Notes under the pieces: generated by a model
Told to the model about the DNA's origin: nothing
Database searches by the model: none
What the model saw: the letters and a program-made list of their open reading frames with translations, nothing else
Shown: in pieces, positions 2,362 to 59,088 of the stretch
Position numbering within the stretch: position 1 is the first letter of the stretch
Layout: each line of letters begins with the position of its first letter
Source of the DNA: Escherichia coli
GTDB taxonomy: Bacteria > Pseudomonadota > Gammaproteobacteria > Enterobacterales > Enterobacteriaceae
Assembly (NCBI GenBank): GCA_029351405.1
Contig: GCA_029351405.1_4841.1
Length of the DNA: 64,000 nt
Direction: 5' to 3' (one strand)
Made by a program: the position numbers and the translations under genes

Positions 2362-2823
2362 CTACTCCGCCAGGGTGATCACAACCATATTTAAGACTGT
2401 GTCGATAGCTCGGCCTGTTTCCTCTTCATGGAGGGTTTCGGCGCGGAGGTGCACGTCGGTGATGAAATTGTCGATGTGCATTGACGTCAGGTACGGGCGG
2501 TGCTGGCTGACCGGACGGTTGATCAGTACATAGTTACGCAGTGTGTTGAAGTCCTGCTGAGAGCACCCGGTGGTGTCAATGCGCAGGAAGCGTTCATTGT
2601 GGCTTGTCTTCAACTCAGTTACTTTGCCGAGGTAGACCAGAGGTCCATTGCGACCGATACGGAACATAACATCAACAACAGACTTGAAGATTTCGCGTTC
2701 AATCAGTGCGGTGGGTGACCAGCAGATCTCTTCTTTGTCGTCGGCGTACAGGGTGTCGATCACCAGAGGGAGTTGAATGTAACCGAAGTTGTGCAGTGGG
2801 TTGGTGAGTACCTTGTTTGTCAT
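2362..2823 (-). CDS. hypothetical early protein
   Basis: ATG at 2823 preceded by conserved leader TTGAAAGCAGGAACTATATC; the ORF-track N-terminal extension is the in-frame leader. Confidence 0.6.
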   Translation of the reverse strand: MTNKVLTNPLHNFGYIQLPLVIDTLYADDKEEICWSPTALIEREIFKSVVDVMFRIGRNGPLVYLGKVTELKTSHNERFLRIDTTGCSQQDFNTLRNYVLINRPVSQHRPYLTSMHIDNFITDVHLRAETLHEEETGRAIDTVLNMVVITLAE

Positions 2824-2873
2824 GATATAGTTCCTGCTTTCAATTTGTGGCGAATGCCAATGAATTACTGGGA

Positions 2874-2902
2874 AGTATAGGGGAGGGCGTTTCAAAAGTA
2901 AA
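2874..2902 (-). promoter_or_regulatory. early sigma70-like promoter (TTTACT-17-TATACT), PeSL-type cassette
   Basis: -35 and -10 hexamers with 17-nt spacer read on the minus strand; the same architecture recurs at 16126, 50399, 59009, 9190 and 31546. Confidence 0.5.
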
Positions 2903-2920
2903 GCCCCTCAATGAGGGGCT
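2902..2920 (-). terminator. stem-loop (gcccctc / gaggggc) abutting the early promoter
   Basis: 7-bp GC stem followed on the minus strand by a U-rich tract that overlaps the -35; lies after the glutaredoxin gene stop. Confidence 0.45.
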
Positions 2921-2928
2921 TTGACAGA

Positions 2929-8627: not shown

Positions 8628-9116
8628 TTAGGCCAGTTTGCTCACCAGAGCTTCAACTGCGTCGGCGCTCAGTTTACCCATTTTGACGTACTGAGCTTTT
8701 GCTTCGCCGCCAACTGCTTTCACGATGTCGGTGTTGTCGTACCCCTTCTTAGGGAAGACCATCACAGAGAAGGAACCGTTGTTCAGCGGGTTCAGCTGGA
8801 TGCGACCTTTACCGACTACGATGGTGCCGTAAGTTTCGGTGTTTGCTTCGACAATGTGGATGTCGTGACCCAGGTTTTTCAGCATACCAACTTTGTCGGC
8901 AGTCTTAGCAACCACAGCTTTGTCAACCACAACCTGCTCTACCAGGGTGAAGCCGTTAGTCGATTTCACTTTACCGTTCAGCAGGTTCATGAAGGAAGTT
9001 TTGCCACCAGTGAAGCCAGCCGCCTGAGCGATGCGGAACATTTCAACTTTAGCAACTTCGGTGTTCAGTTCGAAAGAGATGGTGCCGTTGGTGATCAGAG
9101 TTTTGGTAGTAGCCAT
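8628..9116 (-). CDS. hypothetical early protein
   Basis: 162 aa; SD GAGGAA; strong early promoter upstream. Confidence 0.65.
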   Translation of the reverse strand: MATTKTLITNGTISFELNTEVAKVEMFRIAQAAGFTGGKTSFMNLLNGKVKSTNGFTLVEQVVVDKAVVAKTADKVGMLKNLGHDIHIVEANTETYGTIVVGKGRIQLNPLNNGSFSVMVFPKKGYDNTDIVKAVGGEAKAQYVKMGKLSADAVEALVSKLA

Positions 9117-9189
9117 GATGTAATTCCTCATAATGTAGTTGGTTCATTTCACTTTTCATTCGGCGGTGTGTTGCCGCCCTATGTGAACT

Positions 9190-9218
9190 ATAATAGTGCA
9201 TCATTATTGAAGAGTAAA
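9190..9218 (-). promoter_or_regulatory. early sigma70-like promoter (CTTTACT-17-TATTAT)
   Basis: Hexamers with 17-nt spacer about 75 nt upstream of the 9116 start. Confidence 0.5.
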
Positions 9219-9256
9219 GTCTTTTTCAATAATTTTTTAAAATATTTTTGAAGTAT

Positions 9257-9283
9257 TTTAAAAGGCCTCATTCGACGAGGCCT
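9257..9283 (-). terminator. rho-independent terminator
   Basis: ggcctc / gaggcc hairpin followed by UUUUAAAAU on the minus strand. Confidence 0.45.
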
Positions 9284-15368: not shown

Positions 15369-15443
15369 TTTATATCTCCTGATTGAATTAACGGCGATTT
15401 CTTCTAATTAGCGAAACCAAAAGGGAGCGTCAGCCCCCTTATC

Positions 15444-15779
15444 TTATTTTTGAACTTGGGCTACAGACATCGCCCAGAGCGGGAGGGTGTGGGGGTCCAG
15501 GGCTTCCAGTAGATATTCGACGCGCTCTGACATGATACCTTCAGGGAAGTTTACTTCTTCTGGTTCGTTGTTGGCCGTCCAACCCAAGGTCAGTCCTTCA
15601 GCGTGATGGATGATATAAACGAAGTCGCCCGATTCGTAGTCCTTTTCCATCAGGTCGAAGAACGCTTCCATTTCTTCGTCGGAGAAGTAGTAGATGCGAG
15701 GTACGGAGCCGTCAGCAAAGTGTTCAGCACCCTGGAAGGCAAACATGTCATCGGCGGTGAAGTTCTTGAGTTGTGTCAT
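15444..15779 (-). CDS. hypothetical early protein
   Basis: 111 aa; conserved leader GAAGGAACTATATC-ATG. Confidence 0.6.
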   Translation of the reverse strand: MTQLKNFTADDMFAFQGAEHFADGSVPRIYYFSDEEMEAFFDLMEKDYESGDFVYIIHHAEGLTLGWTANNEPEEVNFPEGIMSERVEYLLEALDPHTLPLWAMSVAQVQK

Positions 15780-15801
15780 GATATAGTTCCTTCGGTTCAA
15801 A

Positions 15802-16077
15802 TTAACGGCGGAAAGGGCGGTTTGCGTTTTCGCGGTTAGACCAATTCTTTTCAGCCCGAGCGATAGCCGCTGGACTCCATTCGCGCTCCCACTCTTTGTC
15901 TACTTCAGCCTGGTTGGCAGGCTCTACCATTTCAACGCCAGGGAAGTCGCATGACATGATTTCGCGCAGCTGGGCAGCTGGGGCGGTCTGGGCGTGGATC
16001 AATTCTTCGCCGTCGTAAACCTTGGCCATCAGGTATTTCTGACCGTGGCGGATATATGCGTCGAGGATAATTTTCAT
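15802..16077 (-). CDS. hypothetical early protein
   Basis: 91 aa; conserved leader TTGAAAAGCAGGAACTACACC-ATG; PeSL promoter upstream. Confidence 0.6.
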   Translation of the reverse strand: MKIILDAYIRHGQKYLMAKVYDGEELIHAQTAPAAQLREIMSCDFPGVEMVEPANQAEVDKEWEREWSPAAIARAEKNWSNRENANRPFRR

Positions 16078-16125
16078 GGTGTAGTTCCTGCTTTTCAAGT
16101 TGGTGTTGTACTGCTTATGGAATGA

Positions 16126-16154
16126 AGTATAGGGAAGGATATTGAAGAAGTAAA
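16126..16154 (-). promoter_or_regulatory. early sigma70-like promoter (TTTACT-17-TATACT), PeSL-type cassette
   Basis: Hexamers with 17-nt spacer; near-identical to the cassettes at 2874 and 50399. Confidence 0.5.
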
Positions 16155-16171
16155 GGGGCGAAAGCCCCTTT
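16152..16171 (-). terminator. stem-loop with GAAA tetraloop abutting the early promoter
   Basis: aaaggggc-gaaa-gccccttt; T-rich on both sides. Confidence 0.45.
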
Positions 16172-16822: not shown

Positions 16823-17436
16823 TATCTTGTCCTCTTCAGTTTCTCTATCGTGTGCTTGTTCATGGCGATCACCCGAGGATCTACCTCGGAGATGGTCCGG
16901 CCTTTGAAGGACACACATTTCTGAAGATATTTAGCTTTCTTCACGACGTCAGCGGCATAAGCGTTCGATGCAGGATTACGGGCAAAGCCAGCATTGTAAG
17001 AGGAGAGGGATTTGCGGATATTCTGATTGTGATAGGTCAGCCAGAACTGCATCTCATCGAGGGCGGCTTGCGCGGCATATTCTTGGTCGGTCAGCAACTT
17101 TATGGCGACATTGGCATAGCACTTGCGATTCTTACAACCTTCGCGATCACCAACTGTCTTCACCTTGTTCTGAAAGGCTCCCATGTTGGCCGCCTTGAGG
17201 CCGTATCGCATTGACACTACATCTTCGCCAGCGCGGCTCTCACGCCAAGATATGGCGGCCAGAGTGTAGCCAAGATCTTGTGTCTTGCCCACGTGATAGG
17301 CGGTTGCCATCGTATTAAGTTGTTGCTCGGAGAAATTATAAACACATTGGCTTGTATTTTGGGAAGCGTGCACATTCCCGCTGGCAATGGTAAAGGTCAC
17401 GGACAAGGCCATGGCCTTCAACGTTGTCATCGTCAT
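16822..17436 (-). CDS. secreted protein with signal peptide, possibly lytic-transglycosylase-like
   Basis: N-terminal signal peptide (MTMTTLKAMALSVTFTIASGNVHA); WRESRAGED resembles the SLT catalytic region; SD AAGGAA. Confidence 0.55.
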   Translation of the reverse strand: MTMTTLKAMALSVTFTIASGNVHASQNTSQCVYNFSEQQLNTMATAYHVGKTQDLGYTLAAISWRESRAGEDVVSMRYGLKAANMGAFQNKVKTVGDREGCKNRKCYANVAIKLLTDQEYAAQAALDEMQFWLTYHNQNIRKSLSSYNAGFARNPASNAYAADVVKKAKYLQKCVSFKGRTISEVDPRVIAMNKHTIEKLKRTR

Positions 17437-17503: not shown

Positions 17504-17529
17504 AAGGGCACGTGATATTTAGTGCCCTT
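17504..17529 (-). terminator. rho-independent terminator
   Basis: 8-bp stem (aagggcac / gtgccctt) followed by UUUAUCUUUU on the minus strand. Confidence 0.5.
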
Positions 17530-26091: not shown

Positions 26092-26340
26092 TTAGCCTTT
26101 CACCACGTCTTCAGTCGTTATCGTGCCATAACATCCACAGCGTTCACAAATCACTCTGACGCAAGGCTTAAAAGTCTGAATATTAGACACAGGAACGTTC
26201 ACCGCCTTTGAAGAAACCTGCATTTCGCGGACTTTAACCCGTTGTTCGGCCAGGCGCTCATCGTCCAAGAAGGTGATCGTCTTGTGAGGACAACGCATTG
26301 ACGATTCACCAACCCAGATTATTGCCATGTTGGGACTCAT
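26092..26340 (-). CDS. small zinc-ribbon protein
   Basis: 82 aa; Cys pairs near both ends; ATGA overlap with the upstream gene. Confidence 0.55.
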   Translation of the reverse strand: MSPNMAIIWVGESSMRCPHKTITFLDDERLAEQRVKVREMQVSSKAVNVPVSNIQTFKPCVRVICERCGCYGTITTEDVVKG

Positions 26341-26615
26341 GATTTGACCTCCGATTTGGAGATTAACGATTCCATCTCCTGACGACCAATGACAGTCTCA
26401 ACTTTGTCTTCTTCAACCATCATTTCATTCAGAAGATCGTACCCCAGGACTTGTACACCAAAAGACTTTTTGTTCAGTTCTGCCTCAATATTGAGAACTC
26501 GCTGAACCGTCAGGCCACCGGAAGAGGACGGTACTGGATAGAAGGCGGAACGCACTTGAACACACCCATTTACGCTGTAACGAACCAGCAAGACATCACA
26601 CCATACACCAGCCAT
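26337..26615 (-). CDS. hypothetical protein
   Basis: 92 aa; SD GGAGGTG. Confidence 0.55.
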   Translation of the reverse strand: MAGVWCDVLLVRYSVNGCVQVRSAFYPVPSSSGGLTVQRVLNIEAELNKKSFGVQVLGYDLLNEMMVEEDKVETVIGRQEMESLISKSEVKS

Positions 26616-28568: not shown

Positions 28569-29254
28569 CACTCGTTCTCCTTCATCATATTGTCGCAGTC
28601 AACGCGAGTCTGCTGGAGTTCGCGTGACATGCGAGGATCATCAAGGTTCACGCTCAGATTCGTGGCCAGGTCTTTCAGACCGTTCTGAACCCTGTCTTCA
28701 AAGTAATAATCGTTCTCAACCAACCAGGCTCTGAGACCGAGAGCGCGAGTGCGCCATTCCTTCTTCAGGACGCGATCAGAGGTCTGCGTAGCGCTGTATT
28801 CGAATACTTTGATGCACTGGTTGCCATCGTTGATAAGGTTCAGGTGGCGGCGACCAACCTGCACACCCTTCTGTAATGCCGGAGAAGGGAGCGAACGACA
28901 CTGTCTTACGGTCATTCGGCCTTGGGTGCCCATACGCCCAGTCATGATTAAATCGCCAGCCTCCATGCCTCCACGGTTAAATTCGTCGTCATTGAGGTAG
29001 CCCTTGAGGTTATAGGCTCCCTGTTTGTAACGGTTGAACTCAATTCCGGCATTGACGACAGCAGTGGAGACGTTGCCTGTGTTCCAGAGTTCAGCGAAGT
29101 TCTCTATGGAACCAGACTTGTCGATGGCAACCGCCTGGGAGAACCCAGCACAATAGGAAAGGTCGGACCACAGTTTATCACCTGTGGAGTTCAGATTGGC
29201 AGCGGCGGGTAATGCCAGACCAGCCAGCACAACCCCGAGGATTAAACGTTTCAT
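28568..29254 (-). CDS. secreted or membrane-anchored protein (signal peptide)
   Basis: ATG at 29254 with SD AAGGAGAA; N-terminus MKRLILGVVLAGLALPAAA. Confidence 0.6.
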   Translation of the reverse strand: MKRLILGVVLAGLALPAAANLNSTGDKLWSDLSYCAGFSQAVAIDKSGSIENFAELWNTGNVSTAVVNAGIEFNRYKQGAYNLKGYLNDDEFNRGGMEAGDLIMTGRMGTQGRMTVRQCRSLPSPALQKGVQVGRRHLNLINDGNQCIKVFEYSATQTSDRVLKKEWRTRALGLRAWLVENDYYFEDRVQNGLKDLATNLSVNLDDPRMSRELQQTRVDCDNMMKENE

Positions 29255-29282
29255 GGTGATTCTCCTTATTTCATTGGATGAA

Positions 29283-29311
29283 ATGATAGGCGGCTCACCA
29301 TGTTGAGTAAA
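29283..29311 (-). promoter_or_regulatory. candidate early promoter (TTTACT-17-TATCAT)
   Basis: Hexamers with 17-nt spacer upstream of the 29254 start. Confidence 0.35.
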
Positions 29312-30263: not shown

Positions 30264-30637
30264 AATGTTCCACCCCCGACAGAGATCAAGAACTCTTCTT
30301 GCATGGTCTTGACCGGGTGGTGGTTTCGGATTTCGATCATGAAGCCCCAGCCGCCGTCGGCGACGTTGCCAAAGGTCTTGACGCCAAAGGACTTCGTCCC
30401 GTTGGAGCAGGAATAGATGTCCAGGACGTATGGGCTACCCTGATTGTCGATCCCACGATTCACGTCTTCTGATACGCAGCGCTCAATCATCTTCCCGTTC
30501 TTATACAGAACGAGGTCTTGGCCATACGCCTTGAAAGCATAAACACCGTTGGTAGACACTCCGGTGATGACAGGAGGGGCGGAAACAGCAGCAAAGGAAG
30601 CGCCTAGCAGGGCAACAGCGAGGATTAACTTTTTCAT
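30260..30637 (-). CDS. secreted protein (signal peptide)
   Basis: MKKLILAVALLGASFAAVSA signal peptide; conserved leader ...GACTATATC-ATG. Confidence 0.6.
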   Translation of the reverse strand: MKKLILAVALLGASFAAVSAPPVITGVSTNGVYAFKAYGQDLVLYKNGKMIERCVSEDVNRGIDNQGSPYVLDIYSCSNGTKSFGVKTFGNVADGGWGFMIEIRNHHPVKTMQEEFLISVGGGTL

Positions 30638-30661
30638 GATATAGTCTCTTGGTTTCAAATG

Positions 30662-30683
30662 GGCGGGGTATGATTACCCCGCC
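30662..30683 (-). repeat. GC-rich leader stem-loop (ggcggggta-tgat-taccccgcc), family member
   Basis: 9-bp stem; related copies at 31223, 43148 and 31960; loop is the reverse complement of the 31223 copy. Confidence 0.5.
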
Positions 30684-30689
30684 GTGGGT

Positions 30690-31196
30690 TTATAGAGTAA
30701 CAAGTGATACGGTAAAAACCATCGTCCCGTCTGTTGCCATTTTTCTTGAAACTGGTATGACGCGAGGCTGGCAGAATATCCATTCTTTCTCCATGGACGC
30801 CAAGTCCAGCATATCCATTTCTGATTCATCGCCTTTGTTCACAAATTTTTCTAGAGAACCATAGACATTAAGCCCCTCCGGGAGTCCGTTTCGATGTTTG
30901 TAACAAATGCGGGCAACAGCTTTGGTTCCGTACGATTTAGAAAATTGTTTGGCCACATGCTTCAGTTCACTGAAGCTAAGACAAGAATCCCATGTCTGGA
31001 ACATGTCGCCTCGTTCAAACATCATCTCTAAACGCGCAACGTCCTCTTTAGGCAGCCCGCGATAAAGTGTGGTCGTCTGTGGTTCGCGTAATTCTTGCAC
31101 CAGATCACGGACGGCAGGGGAAACAGTACCGGGGCGCATTATGTGGGACTTATCATGGACGAGGTAAAATAAATCTTGAATTTGTTGATCGGTCAT
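30690..31196 (-). CDS. putative ADP-ribosyltransferase (R-S-E type, ModA/ModB-like)
   Basis: 168 aa; YRG ... SFS ... EKEWIF spacing matches the R / S-x-S / E-x-E triad; conserved early leader. Confidence 0.45.
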   Translation of the reverse strand: MTDQQIQDLFYLVHDKSHIMRPGTVSPAVRDLVQELREPQTTTLYRGLPKEDVARLEMMFERGDMFQTWDSCLSFSELKHVAKQFSKSYGTKAVARICYKHRNGLPEGLNVYGSLEKFVNKGDESEMDMLDLASMEKEWIFCQPRVIPVSRKMATDGTMVFTVSLVTL

Positions 31197-31222
31197 GGTA
31201 TAGTTCCTGCATTTCAAATAGA

Positions 31223-31240
31223 CGGGGTAATCATACCCCG
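31223..31240 (-). repeat. GC-rich leader stem-loop (cggggta-atca-taccccg), family member
   Basis: Same stem as the 30662 copy with inverted loop. Confidence 0.5.
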
Positions 31241-31302
31241 CCCAAAGTTATAGAATTAACTGATGTGCTTCAGAAGAGCGAAGAGGATCGCGGCCTTGGC
31301 CT

Positions 31303-31494
31303 TTACCTTTCCCACGATACCTGTCTCGACATCAACTTCTTCAGCAACCCACTCTTTCCCTTCTTGCTGATGATAACGTCACGACGCTGTGCGTAGACTT
31401 CTTTGGTCGCATACACACGACGGAACCCTTTAGCGCGGAGCAAGCCCCAATTGCGATCAATTTCTACTGAGGTTTCTACCATTTTGTTCTTCAT
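31303..31494 (-). CDS. small basic protein
   Basis: 63 aa; leader TTGAAAGGTAAGATTATAAC-ATG. Confidence 0.5.
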   Translation of the reverse strand: MKNKMVETSVEIDRNWGLLRAKGFRRVYATKEVYAQRRDVIISKKGKSGLLKKLMSRQVSWER

Positions 31495-31545
31495 GTTATA
31501 ATCTTACCTTTCAACCCGGTGAACCCATCGTTCGCCAGTTATTGA

Positions 31546-31574
31546 ATAATAGGACATTCCTTAGAGGAAGTAAA
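31546..31574 (-). promoter_or_regulatory. early sigma70-like promoter (GTTTACT-17-TATTAT)
   Basis: Hexamers with 17-nt spacer immediately 3' of the terminator hairpin (PeSL architecture). Confidence 0.5.
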
Positions 31575-31590
31575 CCCCTAAAAGTAAAAA

Positions 31591-31610
31591 TCCCCAACGT
31601 TTGTTGGGGA
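31591..31610 (-). terminator. rho-independent terminator ending the vWA / ACP-like operon
   Basis: tccccaac / gttgggga 8-bp stem followed by UUUUUACUUUU on the minus strand. Confidence 0.55.
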
Positions 31611-31616
31611 CTTCTG

Positions 31617-31982: not shown

Positions 31983-34184
31983 TTAGATTTTGATTTCTTT
32001 CTCTGTCAGTTCGGCAGTGACCTTGTACTTCACCCCATCCACTTCAACTTCCATGGTGGACTCTTCCAGGTCGAGGTCGGTGAACCAGCCATGACCAGCA
32101 ACGATACCATACACCACTTTAGACAGCGTCTTGTTCAGGGCGCGGACTTCGGTGATGGCCGCCTTGGTAGCAGCGTCGATCCAGTTTTCGATCAGCTGTT
32201 TCTGTAGGGCTTCAGGCACGGCAGTGATCATAGGAGACTTCACAAATGCTTCGTACTCTTTCAGAGCATTGGCGATGAACAAGTCACCAGCATTGAGTTT
32301 CTTGTTCTCGGCGATCTTCTTCTGTACTGCCGCGATGCTCGGTAGTGAAGATGCCCCGGCGATCTTAACGTTCAGCTCACGGCTCATGTAGACGTCCGTG
32401 GAGTCCTTCAGTTCGGTCTTCGGTGAGAAGCCGTAATCGCGGATGCCGTAGGAGGACAGGAACTCGGCCGCCTCAGCGCCGTACTGTACTGCCAGGCCTT
32501 TGGCGTTACCCTTACCAACCAGGGCGTCTCGATAGAACTTCAGTACCTTCTGCTTGCCTTTCAGGGCTTCCAGGCGGACATTATCCGCAAAGAACTGAGC
32601 AGCACTGATGTTCTTGACCATGGCGCGGTTGACCAGCGGTACGCTTTCCAGGTTCAGGATGAACACTTCCGGACCACCAAACACGTGGACGCCCATTTCG
32701 ATCAGCTTCTGTACAACTTCGATATCAGCCTTGAACGGCAGAGTCTTCACGTTAATGATACCGTCTTTGACGATGGTGTAGTTGCGCCACTGGAAAGTAT
32801 CCAGTTCTTCAGGCAGGCCAAACTTCTTCTGTGCGAATTCAGGCACAGCCACAGTACCGTGTTGAATTGTACGCACACTGATGTTCGGGCGCTCGGAGTT
32901 ATAGACCAAATCGCTGATTGGCACAACACCCAGGTCGTTGGTAGGTTCGAACGTCGGGTTCCACTCTTCGTGTTCTGCCAGCTTGAGAGCCAGGGCTTTA
33001 CGCTCTTCTTTGGACTGAGCATTCGCGATCTGTTCTGCCAGCTTGTCTTCGGTGTCGTCGGTTTTCTGCACAGTACCGCGCCCGATACTCTTATAGGAGA
33101 ACATCGGATGCTTGGTAGCAACAGGCACACCAGCTTCAGCCAGGTACGTCAGCACATCAACGACGGTTGTCGCATCTTCAGCCGGAACCATGTCATAGTC
33201 AATACCGTCAACGCCGCGCAGCTGGTCATCAACAATCGCCTGAACCAGATCGTTCTTGATGTTGGAGTAGTCCTGCTTGGTGAAGCAGTTGCTGTACTGT
33301 TTGATGAAGCGAACGTCGCCCGTCTTCTTCAGCGCAGCCCAAACCAGATCTGCGTCCATAGTGTGTACGCCGTAGAACGCCAGCACGTATGCCGCCTGGA
33401 TGTCCGTCAGGCTATCCATCTGGTCGATCATGTTAGGGTTTACAACCCACAGCTTGGTGACGCTCTCAGGGATGCTCACATAGCCGACCGGGTGAGAGTC
33501 ATCGTCCTGTACCGCCAGCACTGTTGCCACACCGTTTTCGACGTAGATTGCATGGGTGTAGATGACTGGGACATCAACTTTCACCTTCGGCACTGATGAC
33601 TTCAGCACGTTTTCCAGTTCGTTCTGGTATTCGGTCTGACCTTCGGCAAACACGTGAGTAGCACCGGAGCGTTCGGCCATCTGCGCCAGCAGTTCGCGGT
33701 TACAGTACCAGCCGTATTCGATAAATGTAATGTTATCGAAAGCAAATGGCAGGGTCTCAGCAACCAGTAAGATTTCGTTGGTACGCCAGCAGTTGTCATA
33801 ACCATCGGTCATGAATGCCAGGTTGTTGACGTAGCCAGGTTTCTTCAGGTCACGCGCAGTATCCATCGCCAGTTTCAATGGCTCAACGAAACCAGTACAG
33901 CCGGATGGTTGCAGGAAACGGTCGATCAGTTTGTTCAGCTCGCTCAGGTCAGATGCGACACCGATCTGACGCCCGGCAAATACCGTTCCGAAATCACCGC
34001 GAGATGAAAAGTAAAGGATGCTCACAGTATCTTCGGGTTTCACCAGGGAAGGTAGGTTCTCCTTCAGATGCTTACGGACTTCTGGAAGTGAACGATACAT
34101 GGAACCGGAGATATCCACAACGATTACATGGTTAGACGGCGCGACGGTCGCAACCGCATTCTTAAATGTTAATGATTCAATCAT
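31983..34184 (-). CDS. von Willebrand factor A domain protein
   Basis: 733 aa from the ATG at 34184; MIDAS-like VVDISGSM ... FMTDGYDN. Confidence 0.7.
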   Translation of the reverse strand: MIESLTFKNAVATVAPSNHVIVVDISGSMYRSLPEVRKHLKENLPSLVKPEDTVSILYFSSRGDFGTVFAGRQIGVASDLSELNKLIDRFLQPSGCTGFVEPLKLAMDTARDLKKPGYVNNLAFMTDGYDNCWRTNEILLVAETLPFAFDNITFIEYGWYCNRELLAQMAERSGATHVFAEGQTEYQNELENVLKSSVPKVKVDVPVIYTHAIYVENGVATVLAVQDDDSHPVGYVSIPESVTKLWVVNPNMIDQMDSLTDIQAAYVLAFYGVHTMDADLVWAALKKTGDVRFIKQYSNCFTKQDYSNIKNDLVQAIVDDQLRGVDGIDYDMVPAEDATTVVDVLTYLAEAGVPVATKHPMFSYKSIGRGTVQKTDDTEDKLAEQIANAQSKEERKALALKLAEHEEWNPTFEPTNDLGVVPISDLVYNSERPNISVRTIQHGTVAVPEFAQKKFGLPEELDTFQWRNYTIVKDGIINVKTLPFKADIEVVQKLIEMGVHVFGGPEVFILNLESVPLVNRAMVKNISAAQFFADNVRLEALKGKQKVLKFYRDALVGKGNAKGLAVQYGAEAAEFLSSYGIRDYGFSPKTELKDSTDVYMSRELNVKIAGASSLPSIAAVQKKIAENKKLNAGDLFIANALKEYEAFVKSPMITAVPEALQKQLIENWIDAATKAAITEVRALNKTLSKVVYGIVAGHGWFTDLDLEESTMEVEVDGVKYKVTAELTEKEIKI

Positions 34185-34353
34185 CGTTTTGACCTTTTTG
34201 GGCTTTGGAGTGTTTGGAGTTCGCGTCGGCGTTCTCCAGCATAGTTTCAATGAAATCCCGGTTGTTTTCCATTTGGGCGACCAGAACATCACTGGGGCGG
34301 AATGATTTGTCAAGACAATCAAGTCCGGCGCGTTTTAATTTGTTGTCGGTCAT
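34177..34353 (-). CDS. small hypothetical protein
   Basis: 58 aa from the ATG at 34353; overlaps the vWA start; first gene after the promoter at 34402-34429. Confidence 0.4.
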   Translation of the reverse strand: MTDNKLKRAGLDCLDKSFRPSDVLVAQMENNRDFIETMLENADANSKHSKAQKGQNDD

Positions 34354-34401
34354 CAGGCTCTCGTGAGTTATATTTCCCAACTATTTCAACATGGAACTAT
34401 T

Positions 34402-34429
34402 ATATTACGACAGGCGGTATTGATGTCAA
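34402..34429 (-). promoter_or_regulatory. sigma70-type promoter (TTGACA-16-TAATAT)
   Basis: Consensus -35 on the minus strand in a 150-bp AT-rich intergenic region upstream of the vWA / ACP-like operon. Confidence 0.45.
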
Positions 34430-34503
34430 TTAATATAATAAAAATACCCGATTGAATATAACCGGGCATTATATTATTGACAGGTTGAAATATTATTCAG
34501 AGC

Positions 34504-35376
34504 TTATTTAAAGGAGTCTACAATGGATTTGAAAATATAATCTTTGGAGCGCTGTTGTACCGGGAGTTCTCCATACGGAACCATGCAAGGGTGTTGTTTG
34601 GTCTGAGGGTCTTTGACTGGGCCATACACCCAACCCTCAGACTCCTTCTCCGCCATCCATCTCTCATGCGATTCGCTGGGCTTACGATCACCAGTGAGGT
34701 GGAAGATAACACCTTTGCAAGCGCTCTCACGTTGCCAGGCCGGAGATTGTTCCCAAGGCAGTTGAGAGTCGTCACCAACAGACTTACAGTATGCGCGGTT
34801 GGCTTCATGACAAATCTTGGCGATGCGCAGAACCAATGGCGAATAAGTGAGATCGAGTTTGGAGTTGGCGCGCAGGAAATCACTAACAGTCTTACGAGAT
34901 TTGGCGTTATGAGATTCAACAACAAGTTCCATGTCATCCGGCCCACAAACGAAAGACGCCAAGAAGCGCTCACCATTTTCCGCTCTGAACGTCACGTCCT
35001 GAATCATCACATTGAAGCCGAGGTGATAGGCCGGATAGAGGGCGCTACGTTCAACAGCGTATTGATCGATCCGGATCTCTGCCGTTTCCGTGGCTTTGGC
35101 CAACAGATCTTGTTCAACAAGCGCCCGGTACGTCTCGAGCTGCCACAGCTGGTCGAAGGTATTATTGTAGGAAATCTCTTTGCCCAGGGCTTCATCGAAG
35201 TTGGCAGGGTCTATGGATGTGCTGGGCTTGGTGCCGTGAACGACGAAGCCGTTATCCATCTTGAAATGACAAGTGATAGCCCGGTGACCGCCGACTTCGC
35301 GGTCTTCGTAAATCACCTCAGCGATATGTGACTTCAGGACTTCAGGAGTGAGTTTTATGCCAGTACGAGTTGTCAT
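34504..35376 (-). CDS. RyR-domain protein
   Basis: 290 aa; C-terminal ...HERWMAEKESEGWVYGPVKDPQTKQHPCMVPYGELP matches the RyR-domain consensus; SD AGGATAA. Confidence 0.65.
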   Translation of the reverse strand: MTTRTGIKLTPEVLKSHIAEVIYEDREVGGHRAITCHFKMDNGFVVHGTKPSTSIDPANFDEALGKEISYNNTFDQLWQLETYRALVEQDLLAKATETAEIRIDQYAVERSALYPAYHLGFNVMIQDVTFRAENGERFLASFVCGPDDMELVVESHNAKSRKTVSDFLRANSKLDLTYSPLVLRIAKICHEANRAYCKSVGDDSQLPWEQSPAWQRESACKGVIFHLTGDRKPSESHERWMAEKESEGWVYGPVKDPQTKQHPCMVPYGELPVQQRSKDYIFKSIVDSFK

Positions 35377-35384
35377 GTGTTATC

Positions 35385-35759
35385 CTATGATAGTTGTTTA
35401 CAGACCTCCACTACTTTACGACACATATCGATATTGAACAACCCAATATGACAATCGCGCTTCTTGATCCCCAGCTTATGCGCCAGCCAACTGTAAGCGT
35501 CGCTCCTGCTCAACTCTCCGCTTTTCCACAGTGGGTCAAACGATCTATGGGCTTCCTGCTTAGCAGCACGGAGAGCGGCATTCGCCATCCTTCCCAAAGG
35601 TTGTCTGCCGTCGCCATGGGCATGGCAACCGACACGGGCATCACATGGGGTACATACCCAGAACTTCAGATTGCGGAGGTCAGGACGATGAGGGTAGAGA
35701 ACATCACCACCGACGAATTCGGCTGGGAGGCCACAGTAATCACATATAACAGGTTCCAT
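35385..35759 (-). CDS. zinc-ribbon protein (CDYCG ... CTPCD)
   Basis: 124 aa from the ATG at 35759; two CxxC pairs; terminator hairpin immediately upstream. Confidence 0.55.
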   Translation of the reverse strand: MEPVICDYCGLPAEFVGGDVLYPHRPDLRNLKFWVCTPCDARVGCHAHGDGRQPLGRMANAALRAAKQEAHRSFDPLWKSGELSRSDAYSWLAHKLGIKKRDCHIGLFNIDMCRKVVEVCKQLS

Positions 35760-40549: not shown

Positions 40550-41014
40550 TTATTCGCTTTTGGCCTTTGTAGGCCGGATAATGTATTTTGGGACCAGCTT
40601 CCATTCAGGAACCTGATCGTGTTTAACCACTTTAATGCGTGACATATCAGCGGCTTCGGTGACCTGCTCAGGATGAATGACCTTCACCATGTTCCACTGC
40701 TCCAGCAGCTTGATGATTCGGTTCATCCTCAGGACATCTTCGCGGTTAAATCCGTTGTAATGCCCGTCCAGCATAAATAGATGCTTAAAGTGGACGATAT
40801 AATACTTACCACACTTATGAAGAATATGGCAAGTCTGATACAGAGTATTCGGCTCTTGGCGCGTGTTTACCCCAATTCGACTCAGTGTTTCCTTGATCCC
40901 CAGGAATATACCTGGCCGATCTTGGTTCAATTGAACTTCAACCATACAATCAACGATGCTGGCCTCATCGTTGACTGCTGAAATATTCAATATGTCTAGC
41001 GTATTACGCGCCAT
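40550..41014 (-). CDS. regA: translational repressor RegA
   Basis: Core aligns with T4 RegA (GIKETLSRIG ... LYQTCHILHKCGKYYIVHFK ... EWKLVPKYII); T4 synteny after 44/62; an alternative start at 40945 is possible. Confidence 0.85.
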   Translation of the reverse strand: MARNTLDILNISAVNDEASIVDCMVEVQLNQDRPGIFLGIKETLSRIGVNTRQEPNTLYQTCHILHKCGKYYIVHFKHLFMLDGHYNGFNREDVLRMNRIIKLLEQWNMVKVIHPEQVTEAADMSRIKVVKHDQVPEWKLVPKYIIRPTKAKSE

Positions 41015-43115: not shown

Positions 43116-43147
43116 TTCAGCCTCGTGTAGAAGAATCATTTCAAATA

Positions 43148-43166
43148 GGCGGGGAACTCCCCCGCC
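43148..43166 (-). repeat. GC-rich leader stem-loop (ggcgggg-aactc-ccccgcc), family member
   Basis: 7-bp stem followed by TATTTGAAATG, as in the 30662 and 31223 copies. Confidence 0.4.
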
Positions 43167-43196
43167 CACACATTATAGCATCAGGCTGGAGATTGA

Positions 43197-46057: not shown

Positions 46058-46085
46058 ACAAAATCTCCCAAGGATTATGGGGTAT

Positions 46086-49280: not shown

Positions 49281-49287
49281 TATTTAG
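49281..49287 (-). promoter_or_regulatory. candidate late promoter box CTAAATA
   Basis: Heptamer immediately 5' of the hairpin, 30 nt upstream of the ATG. Confidence 0.4.
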
Positions 49288-50250: not shown

Positions 50251-50277
50251 GATAAAGTCCTCTATTTGTAGGGGATA

Positions 50278-50298
50278 GGGTATGCGGTTAACATACCC
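50278..50298 (-). repeat. leader stem-loop (gggtatg / cataccc), family member
   Basis: 7-bp stem inside the 200-bp intergenic region. Confidence 0.35.
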
Positions 50299-50398
50299 TG
50301 TTCAAAGGTTTAGAACAAATTGCTGCAATGTTACTTTGTAACGAGAGTGGTGATAGTTCCTTCATTTCAGAGTCAGTGTTGTGCTGCTTATGGAATGA

Positions 50399-50426
50399 AG
50401 TATATGGGGTTTATTGAAGAAGTAAA
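50399..50426 (-). promoter_or_regulatory. orphan PeSL-type early promoter (TTTACT-16-TATACT) whose downstream start codon is lost
   Basis: Promoter and leader nearly identical to the 16126 cassette, but the leader reads GGAACTATCACCAC instead of GGAACTATATCATG. Confidence 0.4.
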
Positions 50427-50451
50427 CCCCGTTTATTGAATAAATTTAAAT

Positions 50452-50696: not shown

Positions 50697-51140
50697 TCAG
50701 TTGTTAATGCGGAACAGTTGTGGATAACCACCTGGATGCCCTTCTCCGGTCACGAAGACCTCGTACCGGGCACCTTTAACCAAACCGGGCAAATTGCCTG
50801 AGTCGAGCAGATAGCGGATTTTATCCATAGTGTCCATCCAGGACTTAGCAGGTTCAGCTTCAGCCTCTCCACGATTGAGGACGAGTTCACCTTCAGAATA
50901 ATACTTCCCGCTGTCCTTCATGTAGTACAGCTTGATATGGATATACTGAGGGGATGGGACCAAACGCCAGCCGTCATCAATCAGATCCTGGCGATCATTA
51001 TCCAGGGACTGGTAATCGATCTCACCAGACGCCAGACCATAGCTGCGCATGTAGCGGAACTTCTCAACACGGTCTTTCACGTCAGAGATGAAGAACTCCT
51101 TCGCGGCTGGACTGATAAAAATGTATTTCTCTTTTGACAT
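50697..51140 (-). CDS. hypothetical early protein
   Basis: 147 aa; conserved leader TTTGAAAGGAAGGAACTATATC-ATG overlapping the upstream stop. Confidence 0.6.
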   Translation of the reverse strand: MSKEKYIFISPAAKEFFISDVKDRVEKFRYMRSYGLASGEIDYQSLDNDRQDLIDDGWRLVPSPQYIHIKLYYMKDSGKYYSEGELVLNRGEAEAEPAKSWMDTMDKIRYLLDSGNLPGLVKGARYEVFVTGEGHPGGYPQLFRINN

Positions 51141-51157
51141 GATATAGTTCCTTCCTT

Positions 51158-51382
51158 TCAAAGAATGATGTGTTTGTCGATATCGGACTGCGTTGCAATC
51201 TCCCAGCGGACGATGTTCTCGGTTGTGATGAAATCACGGTTCAGGTGAGAGGCTGGCACATACACCAATGTGTTGACCATGAAGTAGCGCTGCTCATTGT
51301 TCCAGGAGTCAACATAAGCCTCAATAAGGCACACTTCGATCACTTCGCCTTTCGGATTCTTCACAGTCTTTTTCAGATACAT
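51158..51382 (-). CDS. hypothetical protein (start uncertain)
   Basis: ATG at 51382 with SD GAGGG preferred; the ORF-track start at 51469 overlaps the upstream gene. Confidence 0.45.
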   Translation of the reverse strand: MYLKKTVKNPKGEVIEVCLIEAYVDSWNNEQRYFMVNTLVYVPASHLNRDFITTENIVRWEIATQSDIDKHIIL

Positions 51383-51441
51383 GACACAGCCCTCGGTAGT
51401 AGACGGGGCAATAATACCTCTCACCCCGTTATTGAAAACTG

Positions 51442-51642: not shown

Positions 51643-51664
51643 TGTGATTTCCTCGATTAATAGA

Positions 51665-51682: not shown

Positions 51683-51701
51683 ATGCAATCTTTGAAACTC
51701 T

Positions 51702-58289: not shown

Positions 58290-58570
58290 TTTTGAAATAA
58301 ATGGGGGTTAAAATACTCCAAAGTGAAGATATTTATTATGTCATTCCCCGATAAAAATTATTCATGCTGGGAACGATGAAACGCAATCCGGGTTTGTTGG
58401 ATAACATCCGACGACCGAAACTGAATGCCGCTCTTGGGTTGATAGTAAACTCAGGAAAGAGAAATTCCTTAAACTTGGATACGATGTAGAAGGTAAAACA
58501 GAGGATATGCTGGCGATAGAAGCCGGGTTGGGGCGTATCTGGGGGTGTGGTCTTATCCGGTATGAACAGG

Positions 58571-58597
58571 AAAACTAAAACCCCGCCTCAGCGGGGT
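58571..58597 (-). terminator. rho-independent terminator
   Basis: ccccgc-ctca-gcgggg hairpin followed by UUUUAGUUUU on the minus strand. Confidence 0.55.
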
Positions 58598-58603
58598 AAA
58601 CTA

Positions 58604-58960
58604 CTATTTGCGAATGCCAACCTGAGCATAATACACATGATAATCACCGTGGGTACGGAAGCTGGTGAGGTGGAAGGTGACGAGGTGGCTCCCGAAAGCT
58701 ACAACTTTGGTATCTGGGGAGCATAAATCATTAGTTAGTTCACCCAGAACCTTACCACAAAACTCCCCAACAATAGCGTTAAATCTGTCAATGTGTGGAC
58801 TGGTCACCGTCATTGGACCAACATCTGCACAGTAGATCCCTTTTATCATCTTTCCCTGGCTGTCGCGTACTGGCTTTGCAGGCTGGTAAGGGTTGACGCG
58901 GCGTTTCAGGTTACAGAGGCCGATTTCTTTCAGGATAGCGTTAATTTCGGTCTTGGTCAT
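58604..58960 (-). CDS. hypothetical early protein inserted between gp18 and gp19
   Basis: 118 aa; conserved leader TTGAAACGAAGGATCTATATC-ATG; own early promoter. Confidence 0.6.
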   Translation of the reverse strand: MTKTEINAILKEIGLCNLKRRVNPYQPAKPVRDSQGKMIKGIYCADVGPMTVTSPHIDRFNAIVGEFCGKVLGELTNDLCSPDTKVVAFGSHLVTFHLTSFRTHGDYHVYYAQVGIRK

Positions 58961-59008
58961 GATATAGATCCTTCGTTTCAAGTTGGTGTCGTACTGCTTA
59001 TGTTTAGA

Positions 59009-59036
59009 ATTATACGTGAGTTATTGAAGAAGTAAA
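59009..59036 (-). promoter_or_regulatory. early sigma70-like promoter (TTTACT-16-TATAAT), PeSL-type
   Basis: Perfect -10; spacer tcttcaataactcacg shared with the other cassettes. Confidence 0.5.
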
Positions 59037-59065
59037 GTAATTCAATAAAATAATCTGGAAAATTT

Positions 59066-59088
59066 AAAACCCCGCCGAAGCGGGGTTT
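59066..59088 (-). terminator. rho-independent terminator after gp18 (same hairpin as after gp23)
   Basis: ccccgc-cgaa-gcgggg followed by UUUUAAAUU on the minus strand. Confidence 0.7.

What the first reader, a model, noticed from the sequence alone, without database searches (positions are those of the whole stretch)
2824..2921. Repeated early-promoter cassettes with a 5' stem-loop (PeSL-like) scattered through the window
At least six minus-strand copies share -35 (C/G)TTTACT, a 16-17-nt spacer often beginning tcttcaata, and -10 TATACT/TATAAT/TATTAT, frequently preceded directly by a GC stem-loop: 2874-2920, 9190-9218, 16126-16171, 31546-31610, 50399-50426, 59009-59036; a weaker copy is at 29283-29311. 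They precede small genes of unknown function and resemble the mobile promoter-early-stem-loop cassettes proposed to shuffle genes in T4-type phages. One copy sits between the tail sheath and tail tube genes and drives an inserted ORF (58604-58960).
Basis: partly seen in the sequence, partly recalled or inferred. Interest (0 to 1): 0.55.

Follow-up and report, generated by a model that had tools for sequence, protein, structure and literature searches.

The report
Shared promoter cassettes that swap phage genes
A Salmonella/E. coli phage of the Ackermannviridae family reuses one short terminator-promoter-leader sequence in front of several small unknown genes, and close relatives gain, lose or swap genes exactly at these sequences, as was described earlier for T4-like phages.

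Summary
TTTACT-N16-18-TATNMT occurs 7 times, all on the minus strand, against 0.07 expected. All 7 lie in the 7% of the window that is intergenic and point at the next gene.

The window is an Agtrevirus phage (Ackermannviridae), about 96% identical to Salmonella phage vB_CECAV_050.

Each site is a composite:
- a G+C hairpin or terminator, in 6 of 7;
- an A/T-rich upstream block;
- a T4-early-type -35/-10 pair;
- a 45-70 nt leader;
- a shared translation-initiation motif, TTGAAAnGnAGGAACTAnnnCATG.

Three copies (16126, 50399, 59009) are 75-84% identical over about 80 nt; 29283 shares only the hexamers.

Across four genera the cassette is better conserved (0.92-1.00) than the upstream coding sequence (0.67-0.86). 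The gene behind it is not conserved: at least 5 and at least 4 unrelated families occupy two slots.

Indel junctions fall inside the repeats. Five of 7 cassette junctions vary among five close relatives.

This matches PeSL cassettes of T4-like phages. Promoter activity, early timing and mini-circles are untested. Single sites were already annotated as putative promoters or terminators in Ag3 and LIMEstone1. I rate it a new member of a known kind, of moderate interest.

The parts
2821..2922 (-). Cassette c2874. Terminator hairpin 2900-2922 overlaps the -35 (2897-2902); -10 at 2874-2879; leader with the TTGAAAGCAGGAACTATATC initiation motif; ATG 2821-2823 of a 153-aa ORF (2362-2823).
   Evidence: (-17.2 kcal/mol, z -4.4). 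The hairpin is listed as terminator Torf088 in the Ag3 paper. ORF is PHROG 3902, unknown function.
9114..9282 (-). Cassette c9190. Terminator 9255-9282; A/T-rich block with TTATTGAAA; -35 at 9213-9218; -10 at 9190-9195; 73-nt leader with a 5' hairpin (GGGCGGCAACACACCGCC); ATG 9114-9116 of a 162-aa ORF.
   Evidence: Ag3 lists the homologous site as Porf100 in a different register. LIMEstone1 annotates the homologue as 'putative middle promoter' plus terminator.
16075..16171 (-). Cassette c16126 (class A). Hairpin 16152-16171 overlaps the -35 (16149-16154); -10 at 16126-16131; unstructured A/C-rich leader CATAAGCAGTACAACACCAACTTGAAAAGCAGGAACTACACC; ATG 16075-16077 of ORF91.
   Evidence: The 86-nt cassette is 80-100% identical in 272 Ackermannviridae records. 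Followed by at least 5 unrelated first ORFs in other phages.
15777..15805 (-). Promoter-less copy of the translation-initiation motif (TTAATTTGAACCGAAGGAACTATATCATG) between ORF91 and ORF111. It is the partner of the leader motif in the ORF91 deletion or insertion seen in AV101.
   Evidence: The AV101 junction reads CTTGAAAAGCAGGAACTA|TATCATGACACAAC.
29252..29311 (-). Weak copy c29283. It shares only TTTACT-N17-TATCAT and an upstream TTTATTGAAA. It has a short leader with a GGAG Shine-Dalgarno sequence and no hairpin. ATG 29252-29254 of a 228-aa signal-peptide protein that precedes an Rz-like spanin.
   Evidence: Pairwise identity to the other copies is 0.52-0.57, which is the shuffled level. 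A221 has an 856-bp insertion about 40 nt upstream of its -35.
31492..31614 (-). Cassette c31546. Terminator plus linker 31575-31614; -35 at 31569-31574; -10 at 31546-31551; leader with a 5' hairpin; ATG 31492-31494 of a 63-aa ORF.
   Evidence: -18.5 kcal/mol. CECAV_050 carries two tandem copies with a roughly 50-nt identical terminator/-35 block around an extra ORF. LIMEstone1 annotates the homologue as 'putative early promoter' overlapping a terminator.
30635..31243 (-). Gene 30690-31196 (weak PHROG match to an RNA-polymerase ADP-ribosylase family) flanked by imperfect direct repeats of 'hairpin + ATTTGAAA + Shine-Dalgarno + ATG' at 31194-31243 and 30635-30683. This is a promoter-less version of the same intergenic module.
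   Evidence: Phage A221 lacks the gene, with the junction inside the shared ATTTGAAA.
50346..50430 (-). Cassette c50399 (class B). A perfect inverted repeat GGGGTTTA-N9-TAAACCCC (50406-50430) encloses the -35 (50421-50426) and spacer; -10 at 50399-50404; leader and initiation motif 50353-50398; no start codon follows.
   Evidence: -10.4 kcal/mol. The 28-nt promoter is invariant apart from one G-to-A difference in the window copy, across 16 distinct sequences from four genera. At least 4 unrelated cargo families follow it.
50251..50352 (-). Remnant of the cargo ORF (homologue of cecavS50_132, 93 aa), destroyed by two deletions at microhomologies ACTAT and ATTTGTT. Its terminator-like hairpin is retained.
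58569..59086 (-). Inserted unit between tail sheath and tail tube: terminator T1 (59055-59086); A/T block; -35 at 59031-59036; -10 at 59009-59014; leader; ORF118 (58604-58960); terminator T2 (58569-58597). T1 and T2 are direct repeats of about 30 nt.
   Evidence: The site is empty in Ag3 and P46FS4 and holds a homing endonuclease in CECAV_050 and AV101. ORF118 plus an opposite-strand endonuclease is present in PC3, A221 and Mutine.
51138..51162 (-). Another promoter-less copy of the initiation motif (TTTGAAAGGAAGGAACTATATCATG), in front of the 147-aa ORF 50697-51140.

Best explanation
These are composite regulatory cassettes of an Agtrevirus (Ackermannviridae) phage.

Anatomy. Each cassette fills a whole intergenic gap and consists of:
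1. an intrinsic terminator or hairpin that ends the preceding transcription unit; in three copies its U-tract is, or runs into, the TTT of the -35;
2. an A/T-rich UP-like block (TTATTSAA);
3. a host sigma-70-type promoter of the T4-early flavour (-35 TTTACT, 16-17 nt spacer, -10 TATACT/TATAAT/TATTAT);
4. a 45-70 nt leader, A/C-rich and unstructured in the core copies;
5. a stereotyped translation-initiation region, TTGAAAnGnAGGAACTAnnnCATG.

Expression role (inferred). Host RNA polymerase starts at these sites and expresses one or two small accessory genes as short, insulated, moron-like units inside long co-directional gene arrays. One such unit sits inside the late tail operon.

Evolutionary role (shown by sequence comparison; causality inferred). 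The copies share 8 to about 55 nt of identity with one another and are nearly invariant between genera. They therefore serve as homology arms and crossover points. Genes are deleted between two repeats, inserted flanked by duplicated repeats, or replaced between the start codon and the downstream terminator. This is the PeSL mode of modular shuffling.
For: Non-randomness
- 7 sites against 0.07 expected, all on one strand.
- All lie in the 7.1% of the window that is intergenic.

Promoter-like conservation pattern
- In orthologous copies the -35, the following TCTTCAATA and the -10 are fixed, while the 3' half of the spacer varies.
- The consensus equals the T4/PST PeSL promoter consensus TTTACW-N17-TAYWAT.

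Hairpins
- Free energies are -10 to -18.5 kcal/mol, z -2.6 to -5.
- Loops vary between phages while stems are fixed.

Conservation profile (mean pairwise identity)
- Class A: upstream coding sequence 0.77-0.86, hairpin/-35 0.92, leader 0.95, cargo 0.35-0.56.
- Class B: upstream coding sequence 0.67-0.75, promoter 1.00, leader 0.93, cargo below 0.5.
- An unbiased BLAST finds the 86-nt cassette at 80% identity or more in 272 records, against 282 records that match the first 20 kb of the window at all.

Cargo turnover
- At least 5 unrelated ORF families follow class A and at least 4 follow class B.
- Phages whose flanks are 94-98% identical differ in cargo, with the 5' break at +81/82 from the -35, which is the ATG.

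Junctions inside the repeats
- AV101 lacks ORF91, with the crossover in the shared AGGAACTA.
- A221 lacks gene 30690-31196, between hairpin+TTGAAA repeats.
- CECAV_050 has tandem cassettes around an extra ORF.
- ORF118 is flanked by roughly 30-nt terminator repeats, and T1 alone follows the sheath gene in other lineages.
- The same cargo occurs with two initiation-motif variants, and the same variant occurs with different cargo.

Association
- 5 of 7 cassette junctions are polymorphic among five relatives, against about 22 of 74 other junctions; rough Fisher p = 0.04.
Against: - No transcription data exist for any Ackermannviridae phage in the searched library. Promoter activity, the start site and 'early' timing are all inferred.
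- LIMEstone1 annotators called two homologous sites 'middle' rather than 'early'.
- The generic sigma-70 scan is not enriched, and each site scores only 9-10 of 12 against TTGACA/TATAAT.
- A complete relative genome has only 8 strict copies (9-10 relaxed), all on one strand. The plus-strand blocks, which include rIIA/B and DNA polymerase, have none. This is therefore a sub-family of promoters, not the phage's early promoter set.
- About 13 of 19 gene-content polymorphic sites have no cassette, and several involve homing endonucleases.
- The cargo loss at 50399 is due to microhomology deletions inside the ORF, not to cassette recombination.
- Cassettes 2874 and 9190 keep the same cargo in all genomes looked at.
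- Breakpoints at conserved sequence can also arise because only recombinants that keep a working promoter survive.
- The Fisher test rests on a hand-curated junction count.
- The IMG/VR loci were found through 15 nt of the leader, which inflates leader conservation there.
Confidence: 0.7

Rival explanations
1. The sites are ordinary, functionally constrained promoters and terminators with no causal role in recombination. Gene flux comes from homing endonucleases and from illegitimate or microhomology recombination. Breakpoints appear at cassettes only because recombinants that keep a working promoter, leader and terminator are the ones that survive.
For: - The 50399 cargo was lost by two microhomology deletions inside the ORF.
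- Crossover tracts in AV101 and A221 are only 8 nt long.
- Most polymorphic sites lack a cassette, and homing endonucleases sit at several of them. These include the sheath-tube locus itself, 7575, 51437-52404 and probably 42459-43169.
- 2874 and 9190 have stable cargo.
Against: - Repeats of 30-55 nt flank ORF118 and the extra CECAV_050 ORF.
- Initiation-motif variants and cargo recombine in several combinations.
- The cassette is better conserved than the neighbouring coding sequence across genera.
- Cassette junctions are enriched among polymorphic junctions.
Confidence: 0.2
2. The motif is recognised only with a phage-encoded factor, as a middle-type or otherwise phage-specific promoter. 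Alternatively, the invariant palindromes and the TTTACTTCTTCAATA block are operators for a phage regulator that switches these units off. In either case the extreme conservation reflects protein binding rather than sigma-70 contacts.
For: - LIMEstone1 annotates two homologues as 'putative middle promoter'.
- The nine bases after the -35 and the whole class B promoter, with its perfect 8-bp inverted repeat, are invariant across genera. That is more than sigma-70 recognition needs.
- The copies are on one strand only.
Against: - ViI-like phages have no MotA or AsiA homologues, according to the CBA120 paper.
- The hexamers and spacing are a good sigma-70 fit and equal the T4/PST early consensus.
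- The G+C hairpins followed by T-runs look like ordinary terminators, and their loops vary.
Confidence: 0.08
3. The motif is a chance or compositional recurrence with no function.
For: Generic sigma-70 consensus hits are no more frequent than in shuffles.
Against: - 7 sites against 0.07 expected, all on one strand and all intergenic.
- The motif is conserved in 272 genomes.
Confidence: 0.01

Closest known systems
PeSL (promoter-early stem-loop) cassettes of T4-like phages: RB49/phi1 (Arbiol et al. 2010, PMC2839356); PST/T4 and nt-1/KVP40 (Comeau et al. 2014, PMC4122927)
   Same: - Composite of an A/T-rich block, a sigma-70-like promoter, a G+C stem-loop at a variable position, and a Shine-Dalgarno sequence plus ATG, filling the whole intergenic space.
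- The promoter consensus is the same as in the T4/PST pair (TTTACW-N17-TAYWAT).
- Most stem-loops lie just upstream of the promoter, as in PST. One lies between the -35 and -10 as a G-run/loop/C-run hairpin, as in RB49/phi1.
- The cassettes sit next to small ORFs of unknown function that differ between close relatives.
- Indel junctions lie in the cassette, and ORFs are flanked by two copies.
   Different: - The host phage family is Ackermannviridae, which is only distantly T4-related and has about 50% G+C.
- There are few copies (about 8-10 per 152-kb genome), all on one strand, scattered between core genes rather than packed in hyperplastic regions.
- The repeat extends through a long conserved leader and initiation region. 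That region also exists on its own, without a promoter, and is itself a crossover site.
- The cassette is nearly invariant across four genera.
- Promoter and terminator activity and mini-circles, all shown for RB49/phi1, are untested here.
Morons of lambdoid phages (a gene with its own promoter and terminator inserted between two genes)
   Same: ORF118 with its own promoter and terminator sits inside the late tail operon. The other units are equally self-contained.
   Different: Morons are not defined by a conserved, repeated flanking sequence. Here the regulatory flank is the conserved and repeated part.
Putative promoters and terminators already annotated in relatives: Ag3 Porf100, Porf138, Torf088, Torf141 (PMC3121705, suppl. 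2); LIMEstone1 'putative early/middle promoter' features upstream of ORF073, ORF084, ORF106 and ORF133 (HE600015.1)
   Same: These are the same sites or their orthologues.
   Different: They were annotated one at a time by resemblance to TTGACA/TATAAT or to T4 classes, and one was placed in a different register. They were not recognised as a repeated family, as conserved across genera, or as linked to gene turnover.
Homing-endonuclease-mediated marker exchange in T-even phages
   Same: Endonuclease genes occupy several of the variable sites, including the sheath-tube locus next to ORF118.
   Different: No endonuclease gene lies at the class A, class B or 31546 slots in the genomes examined, and junctions there are in the regulatory repeats.

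Membership tests
PeSL cassettes (Arbiol 2010; Comeau 2014) | Sigma-70-like early-promoter motif (-35, about 17 nt, -10) repeated in the genome | tested here: met
   7 copies against 0.07 expected. 8 strict copies in the complete CECAV_050 genome. The consensus equals the T4/PST PeSL consensus TTTACW-N17-TAYWAT.
PeSL cassettes (Arbiol 2010; Comeau 2014) | [quoted passage not shown] | tested here: met
   TTATTSAA-containing A/T blocks lie upstream of all copies. Where a hairpin abuts the -35, the block lies upstream of the hairpin.
PeSL cassettes (Arbiol 2010; Comeau 2014) | Stable stem-loop within or next to the promoter, at a variable position | tested here: met
   6 of 7 copies: two abutting, three 12-45 nt upstream, and one between the -35 and -10. 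Free energies are -10.4 to -18.5 kcal/mol. 29283 has none.
PeSL cassettes (Arbiol 2010; Comeau 2014) | [quoted passage not shown] | tested here: met
   The 50399 copy has lost its ATG.
PeSL cassettes (Arbiol 2010; Comeau 2014) | Sequence conservation between copies over roughly 100 bp | tested here: inconclusive
   Met for 16126, 50399 and 59009 (0.75-0.84 over about 80 nt) and weakly for 2874 (0.70-0.73). 9190 and 31546 are marginal (0.63-0.69, against a shuffled maximum of 0.65). 29283 is at background.
PeSL cassettes (Arbiol 2010; Comeau 2014) | Location next to ORFs that differ between closely related phages | tested here: met
   5 of 7 cassette junctions are polymorphic among five relatives at 92-97% identity. 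The rough Fisher test gives p = 0.04. 2874 and 9190 are stable.
PeSL cassettes (Arbiol 2010; Comeau 2014) | Insertion, deletion or replacement junctions lie within the cassette sequences | tested here: met
   Loss of ORF91 in AV101, loss of gene 30690-31196 in A221, tandem cassettes in CECAV_050, the T1/T2 repeats around ORF118, and cargo replacement starting at the ATG.
PeSL cassettes (Arbiol 2010; Comeau 2014) | Clustering in hyperplastic regions | tested here: not met
   Copies lie 2-19 kb apart between core replication and structural genes. Only the 31.5-kb locus has tandem copies, and only in some relatives.
PeSL cassettes (Arbiol 2010; Comeau 2014) | Demonstrated promoter and terminator activity, and formation of mini-circles | not testable with these tools
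   Needs reporter fusions, 5'-end mapping and inverse PCR on infected cells.
T4-type early promoters | Transcription by unmodified host sigma-70 RNA polymerase immediately after infection, without phage protein synthesis | not testable with these tools
   No transcript data for Ackermannviridae were found.

The most novel reading that the evidence does not exclude
The roughly 85-nt promoter-leader module is more than a promoter that happens to recombine. It may be the conserved 5' arm of dedicated 'cargo slots' shared by all Ackermannviridae genera. Each slot has a fixed promoter, leader and initiation region on one side and a fixed terminator on the other, and unrelated small early genes are exchanged between them within and between genera, functionally like an integron without an integrase. 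The near-invariant parts that sigma-70 does not need are the TCTTCAATA block, the 8-bp perfect palindrome around the -35, and the A/C-rich leader with TTGAAAnGnAGGAACTA. These could be binding sites for a phage regulator, such as the RegA homologue at 40550-41014 or an unknown repressor, that co-regulates all cargo.
Probability: 0.25. Interest if true: 0.65.

Novelty: new member of a known kind. Interest (0 to 1): 0.45.

Why it matters
Ackermannviridae (ViI-like) phages are widely used and proposed for biocontrol of Salmonella, E. coli O157, Shigella, Klebsiella and Dickeya. Their early transcription signals were explicitly reported as unidentified for CBA120.

The cassette family provides three things:
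- a concrete, testable set of candidate host-polymerase promoters, with a defined leader and ribosome-binding module;
- a map of the slots where accessory genes, which are likely host-takeover or anti-defence functions, are exchanged. That tells annotators where to look for strain-specific genes and tells engineers where foreign genes can be inserted with ready-made expression signals;
- evidence that PeSL-type modular shuffling, so far described only in T4-like phages, also operates in a second, distantly related myovirus family.

Tried and rejected
- Generic sigma-70 and terminator consensus scans over 60 kb. Promoter-like hits equal the shuffle expectation, so they do not support function. 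The terminator rule also missed the hairpins whose T-tract is the -35.
- Rfam gathering scan of the whole window: no family. The leader is not a known RNA element.
- Folding of the core leaders: no structure (-1.5 to -2.2 kcal/mol, z above 0). With about 95% identity there is nothing on which covariation could be measured, so I built no covariance model.
- 'Empty cassette' at 50399 as evidence of cassette-mediated excision: rejected. The ORF was destroyed by two internal microhomology deletions.
- Recent inter-genus transfer of the class A cargo MNAIKTDFT (P46FS4 against a Kuttervirus-like contig): not supported. Cargo and flanks are colinear at 79.5% overall, so both cargo alleles are old in both genera.
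- ORF118 as a recent transposition from the class A locus of Kuttervirus: rejected. The proteins are only 27-34% identical, although promoter, leader and the first 27 nt of the ORF are 91% identical.
- Pfam and PHROG searches of the cargo proteins: no function.
- Literature searches for transcript maps of Ackermannviridae, or for PeSLs in that family: nothing found.
- About 27 of the 59 IMG/VR hits to the 15-nt leader pattern were chance matches without a promoter and were discarded.
Full report
**Identity of the window.** The first 20 kb match Agtrevirus phages of the family Ackermannviridae. Identity is 96-97% to Salmonella phage vB_CECAV_050, Escherichia phage AV101 and A221, and about 92% to Shigella phage Ag3 and Salmonella phage P46FS4. 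G+C is about 50%. About 83 genes fill the window, almost all on the minus strand. They run from ribonucleotide reductase through replication and recombination genes to head, portal, tail tube, tail sheath and terminase. So this is a ViI-like phage, only distantly related to T4.

**The observation.** All are on the minus strand, against 0.07 expected; no shuffle gave more than one. All seven lie in the 7.1% of the window that is intergenic and point at the next gene. A generic TTGACA/TATAAT scan is not enriched over shuffles, so the evidence is the specific recurring motif.

**Anatomy.** Six of the seven copies come with a stable hairpin.
- At 2874 and 16126, the 3' arm and T-tract of the hairpin run into the TTT of the -35 (-17.2 and -13.5 kcal/mol).
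- At 31546 it ends 12 nt upstream (-18.5).
- At 59009 and 9190, canonical terminators lie 20-45 nt upstream.
- At 50399, a perfect inverted repeat GGGGTTTA-N9-TAAACCCC encloses the -35 and spacer (-10.4).
- 29283 has none.

Upstream there is an A/T-rich block containing TTATTSAA.

Copies 16126, 50399 and 59009 share the leader CATAAGCAGYACRACAC... and all but 29283 end in TTGAAAnGnAGGAACTAnnnCATG. From the -35 to the ATG, those three copies are 75-84% identical. Copy 2874 is 70-73% identical to them, 9190 and 31546 are marginal, and 29283 is at the shuffled level. The core leaders are unstructured, and no Rfam family matches.

The initiation motif also occurs without a promoter in front of four other minus-strand genes, whose ATGs lie at 15777-15779, 30635-30637, 31194-31196 and 51138-51140.

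**Conservation.** The 86-nt promoter-plus-leader of 16126 is found at 80-100% identity over at least 80% of its length in 272 phage records from Agtrevirus, Limestonevirus, Kuttervirus and the Klebsiella (Taipeivirus-type) phages, with 556 places in those 272 records. By comparison, 282 records match the window's first 20 kb at all.

An IMG/VR scan for 15 nt of the leader gave 32 genuine copies in two locus classes. Mean pairwise identities:

| Region | Class A (16126 type, 13 distinct sequences) | Class B (50399 type, 16 distinct sequences) |
|---|---|---|
| Upstream coding sequence | 0.77-0.86 | 0.67-0.75 |
| Hairpin/-35 (A) or promoter (B) | 0.92 | 1.00 |
| Leader | 0.95 | 0.93 |
| Sequence after the ATG | 0.35-0.56 | below 0.5 |

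The leader figures are inflated by how the loci were found. The promoter figures and the BLAST result are not.

Within orthologous copies, the -35, the next nine bases and the -10 are fixed, while the 3' half of the spacer varies. That is the pattern expected of a promoter.

**Cargo turnover.**
- The class A slot lies between the cassette and a conserved terminator. In different phages it holds ORF91+ORF111 (window, CECAV_050, Ag3), ORF91 alone, ORF111 alone, a 123-aa ORF, a 122-aa distant homologue of ORF118, or a 77-aa plus a 75-aa ORF. That is at least five mutually unrelated families.
- Class B is followed by at least four unrelated families.
- Phages whose flanks are 94-98% identical differ in cargo. 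Homology stops at +81/82 from the -35, which is the start codon, and resumes at the terminator.
- Both main class A cargo alleles occur in both Agtrevirus and Kuttervirus at genus-level divergence. The polymorphism is therefore old and is reassorted.

**Junctions.**
- AV101 (97% identical to the window) lacks ORF91. Its sequence CTTGAAAAGCAGGAACTA|TATCATGACACAAC is the window's leader joined to the window's internal initiation motif within the shared AGGAACTA.
- A221 lacks gene 30690-31196. In the window that gene is flanked by imperfect 45-nt direct repeats of hairpin + ATTTGAAA + Shine-Dalgarno sequence, and the A221 junction is in ATTTGAAA.
- CECAV_050 has two tandem cassettes at the 31546 locus with a roughly 50-nt identical terminator/-35 block around an extra 72-aa ORF. 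The window's single cassette has the upstream flank of one copy and the downstream flank of the other. Ag3 and P46FS4 hold yet other ORFs there.
- ORF118 lies between two copies of about 30 nt of the same terminator (T1, T2). T1 alone follows the sheath gene in the Klebsiella-type phages, where a GIY-YIG gene comes next.
- The sheath-tube spacer is empty (78 bp) in Ag3 and P46FS4. It holds a homing endonuclease in CECAV_050 and AV101, and ORF118 plus an opposite-strand endonuclease in PC3, A221 and Mutine. Window 58257-58600 looks like the remnant of that endonuclease.
- The same cargo occurs with two initiation-motif variants, and the same variant occurs with different cargo. Crossovers therefore fall at different points inside the leader.

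**Counter-examples.**
- The missing start codon at 50399 results from two deletions at 5- and 7-nt microhomologies inside the ORF.
- Of about 19 gene-content polymorphic sites among five relatives, about 13 are not at cassettes.
- 2874 and 9190 keep their cargo.
- A rough test gives 5 of 7 cassette junctions polymorphic against about 22 of 74 others, p = 0.04. It depends on my hand-curated junction count.

**How it most likely works.**
- Shown: the composite architecture, its non-random distribution, its conservation, and the position of recombination joints.
- Inferred: host sigma-70 polymerase initiates 5-9 nt after the -10, helped by the UP-like block. The upstream hairpin insulates the unit from read-through. 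The unstructured A/C-rich leader and the AGGA Shine-Dalgarno sequence 8-9 nt before the ATG give efficient translation. The units are expressed early.
- The repeats then act as portable homology for the phage's recombination system (UvsX, UvsY, gp46/47 homologues are encoded in this genome). This yields deletion between two copies, insertion flanked by duplicated copies, and allele replacement between promoter-leader and terminator.

**Comparison with the known.** The features that define PeSLs in RB49/phi1 and in PST/T4 and nt-1/KVP40 are met for:
- motif repetition;
- the A/T block;
- the stem-loop at a variable position;
- stop-to-ATG extent;
- association with variable ORFs;
- junctions inside the cassette.

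The promoter consensus is the one published for T4/PST.

Features that fall short:
- Clustering in hyperplastic regions is not met.
- Similarity over about 100 bp holds for three or four of the seven copies only.
- Promoter and terminator activity and mini-circles cannot be tested here.

**Prior knowledge.** Single sites were already annotated. Ag3's supplement lists Porf100 and Porf138 as sigma-70-like promoters, and Torf088 and Torf141 as terminators. The LIMEstone1 record marks the orthologous sites as putative 'early' or 'middle' promoters. The CBA120 paper states that early promoters could not be identified by informatics. The eight papers in the library that mention PeSLs concern T4-like, KVP40-like, cyanophage or archaeal viruses, and none concerns Ackermannviridae. 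No transcript map for the family was found.

**Verdict.** This is a real, well-defined regulatory repeat family. It is a new member of a known kind (PeSL-like cassettes in a second myovirus family).

Three observations remain unexplained:
- The extreme cross-genus invariance of sequence that sigma-70 does not need.
- The stand-alone initiation-region repeat, which is itself a crossover site.
- The restriction of all copies to one strand.

Noticed in passing
window 61032-61038, 58283-58289, 57682-57688, 54743-54749, 49281-49287, 46083-46089, 17516-17522, 16928-16934, 15405-15411 (all minus strand): CTAAWTA lies 20-45 nt upstream of the starts of tail sheath, tail tube, portal, scaffold, the 1017-aa protein and other genes. 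There are 13 matches against 6.7 expected, and 3 of 100 shuffles reach 13. This is probably the core of the gp55-type late promoter (compare T4 TATAAATA), which the CBA120 paper said had not been identified for ViI-like phages.
   Followed up: partly
window 42460-43113 (ORF 42459-43169, minus strand): A 652-bp insertion between the clamp-loader and sliding-clamp genes, absent from all five close relatives compared. The ORF has only a sub-threshold match to the SegE GIY-YIG endonuclease domain (E 0.003, 18 bits against a cut-off of 25). It is probably a homing endonuclease.
   Followed up: partly
window 58257-58600: About 340 bp of non-coding sequence between ORF118's terminator and the tail tube gene. 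A221 and PC3 carry a roughly 1.7-kb opposite-strand homing endonuclease here, with a 1466-bp gap at window 58451-58457. The window appears to keep only its remnants.
   Followed up: partly
window 40550-41014 (minus strand): A clear homologue of the T4 RegA translational repressor (Pfam PF01818, E 2e-34). The stereotyped initiation region TTGAAAnGnAGGAACTA shared by about ten small genes is an obvious candidate operator, but it does not resemble the T4 or RB69 RegA sites as I recall them.
   Followed up: no
window 34188-35394: This region is replaced between relatives. The window has a 290-aa protein with N4 gp49/Sf6 gp66 and RyR domains. Ag3, AV101 and P46FS4 have 2.8-3.5 kb there, including nicotinamide phosphoribosyltransferase and, in AV101 and P46FS4, ribose-phosphate pyrophosphokinase genes.
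   Followed up: no
window 26092-26371; 51437-52439: Two further variable slots without a TTTACT cassette. An 82-aa ORF is present, absent or replaced among relatives. A roughly 1-kb segment with two small ORFs is replaced by a 1.5-2.1-kb segment, annotated as a homing endonuclease in CECAV_050, in CECAV_050, AV101 and A221.
   Followed up: no
L005 (Ag3) 32043-32200, record 79742-79821: In Ag3 the promoter in front of orf138 is 28/28 identical to the window's sheath-tube promoter (59009-59036). It is followed by a terminator-like hairpin in the leader (Torf139) and by a different gene. Promoter modules are therefore reassorted relative to leaders, with the break right after the -10.
   Followed up: partly
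complete genome of vB_CECAV_050 (L006+L001+L002+L007): All 8 strict copies (9-10 relaxed) of the promoter motif are on the minus strand, between 37.7 and 139.2 kb. The plus-strand blocks, which include rIIA/B, topoisomerase and DNA polymerase, have none. They must use a different and still undefined promoter type.
   Followed up: partly
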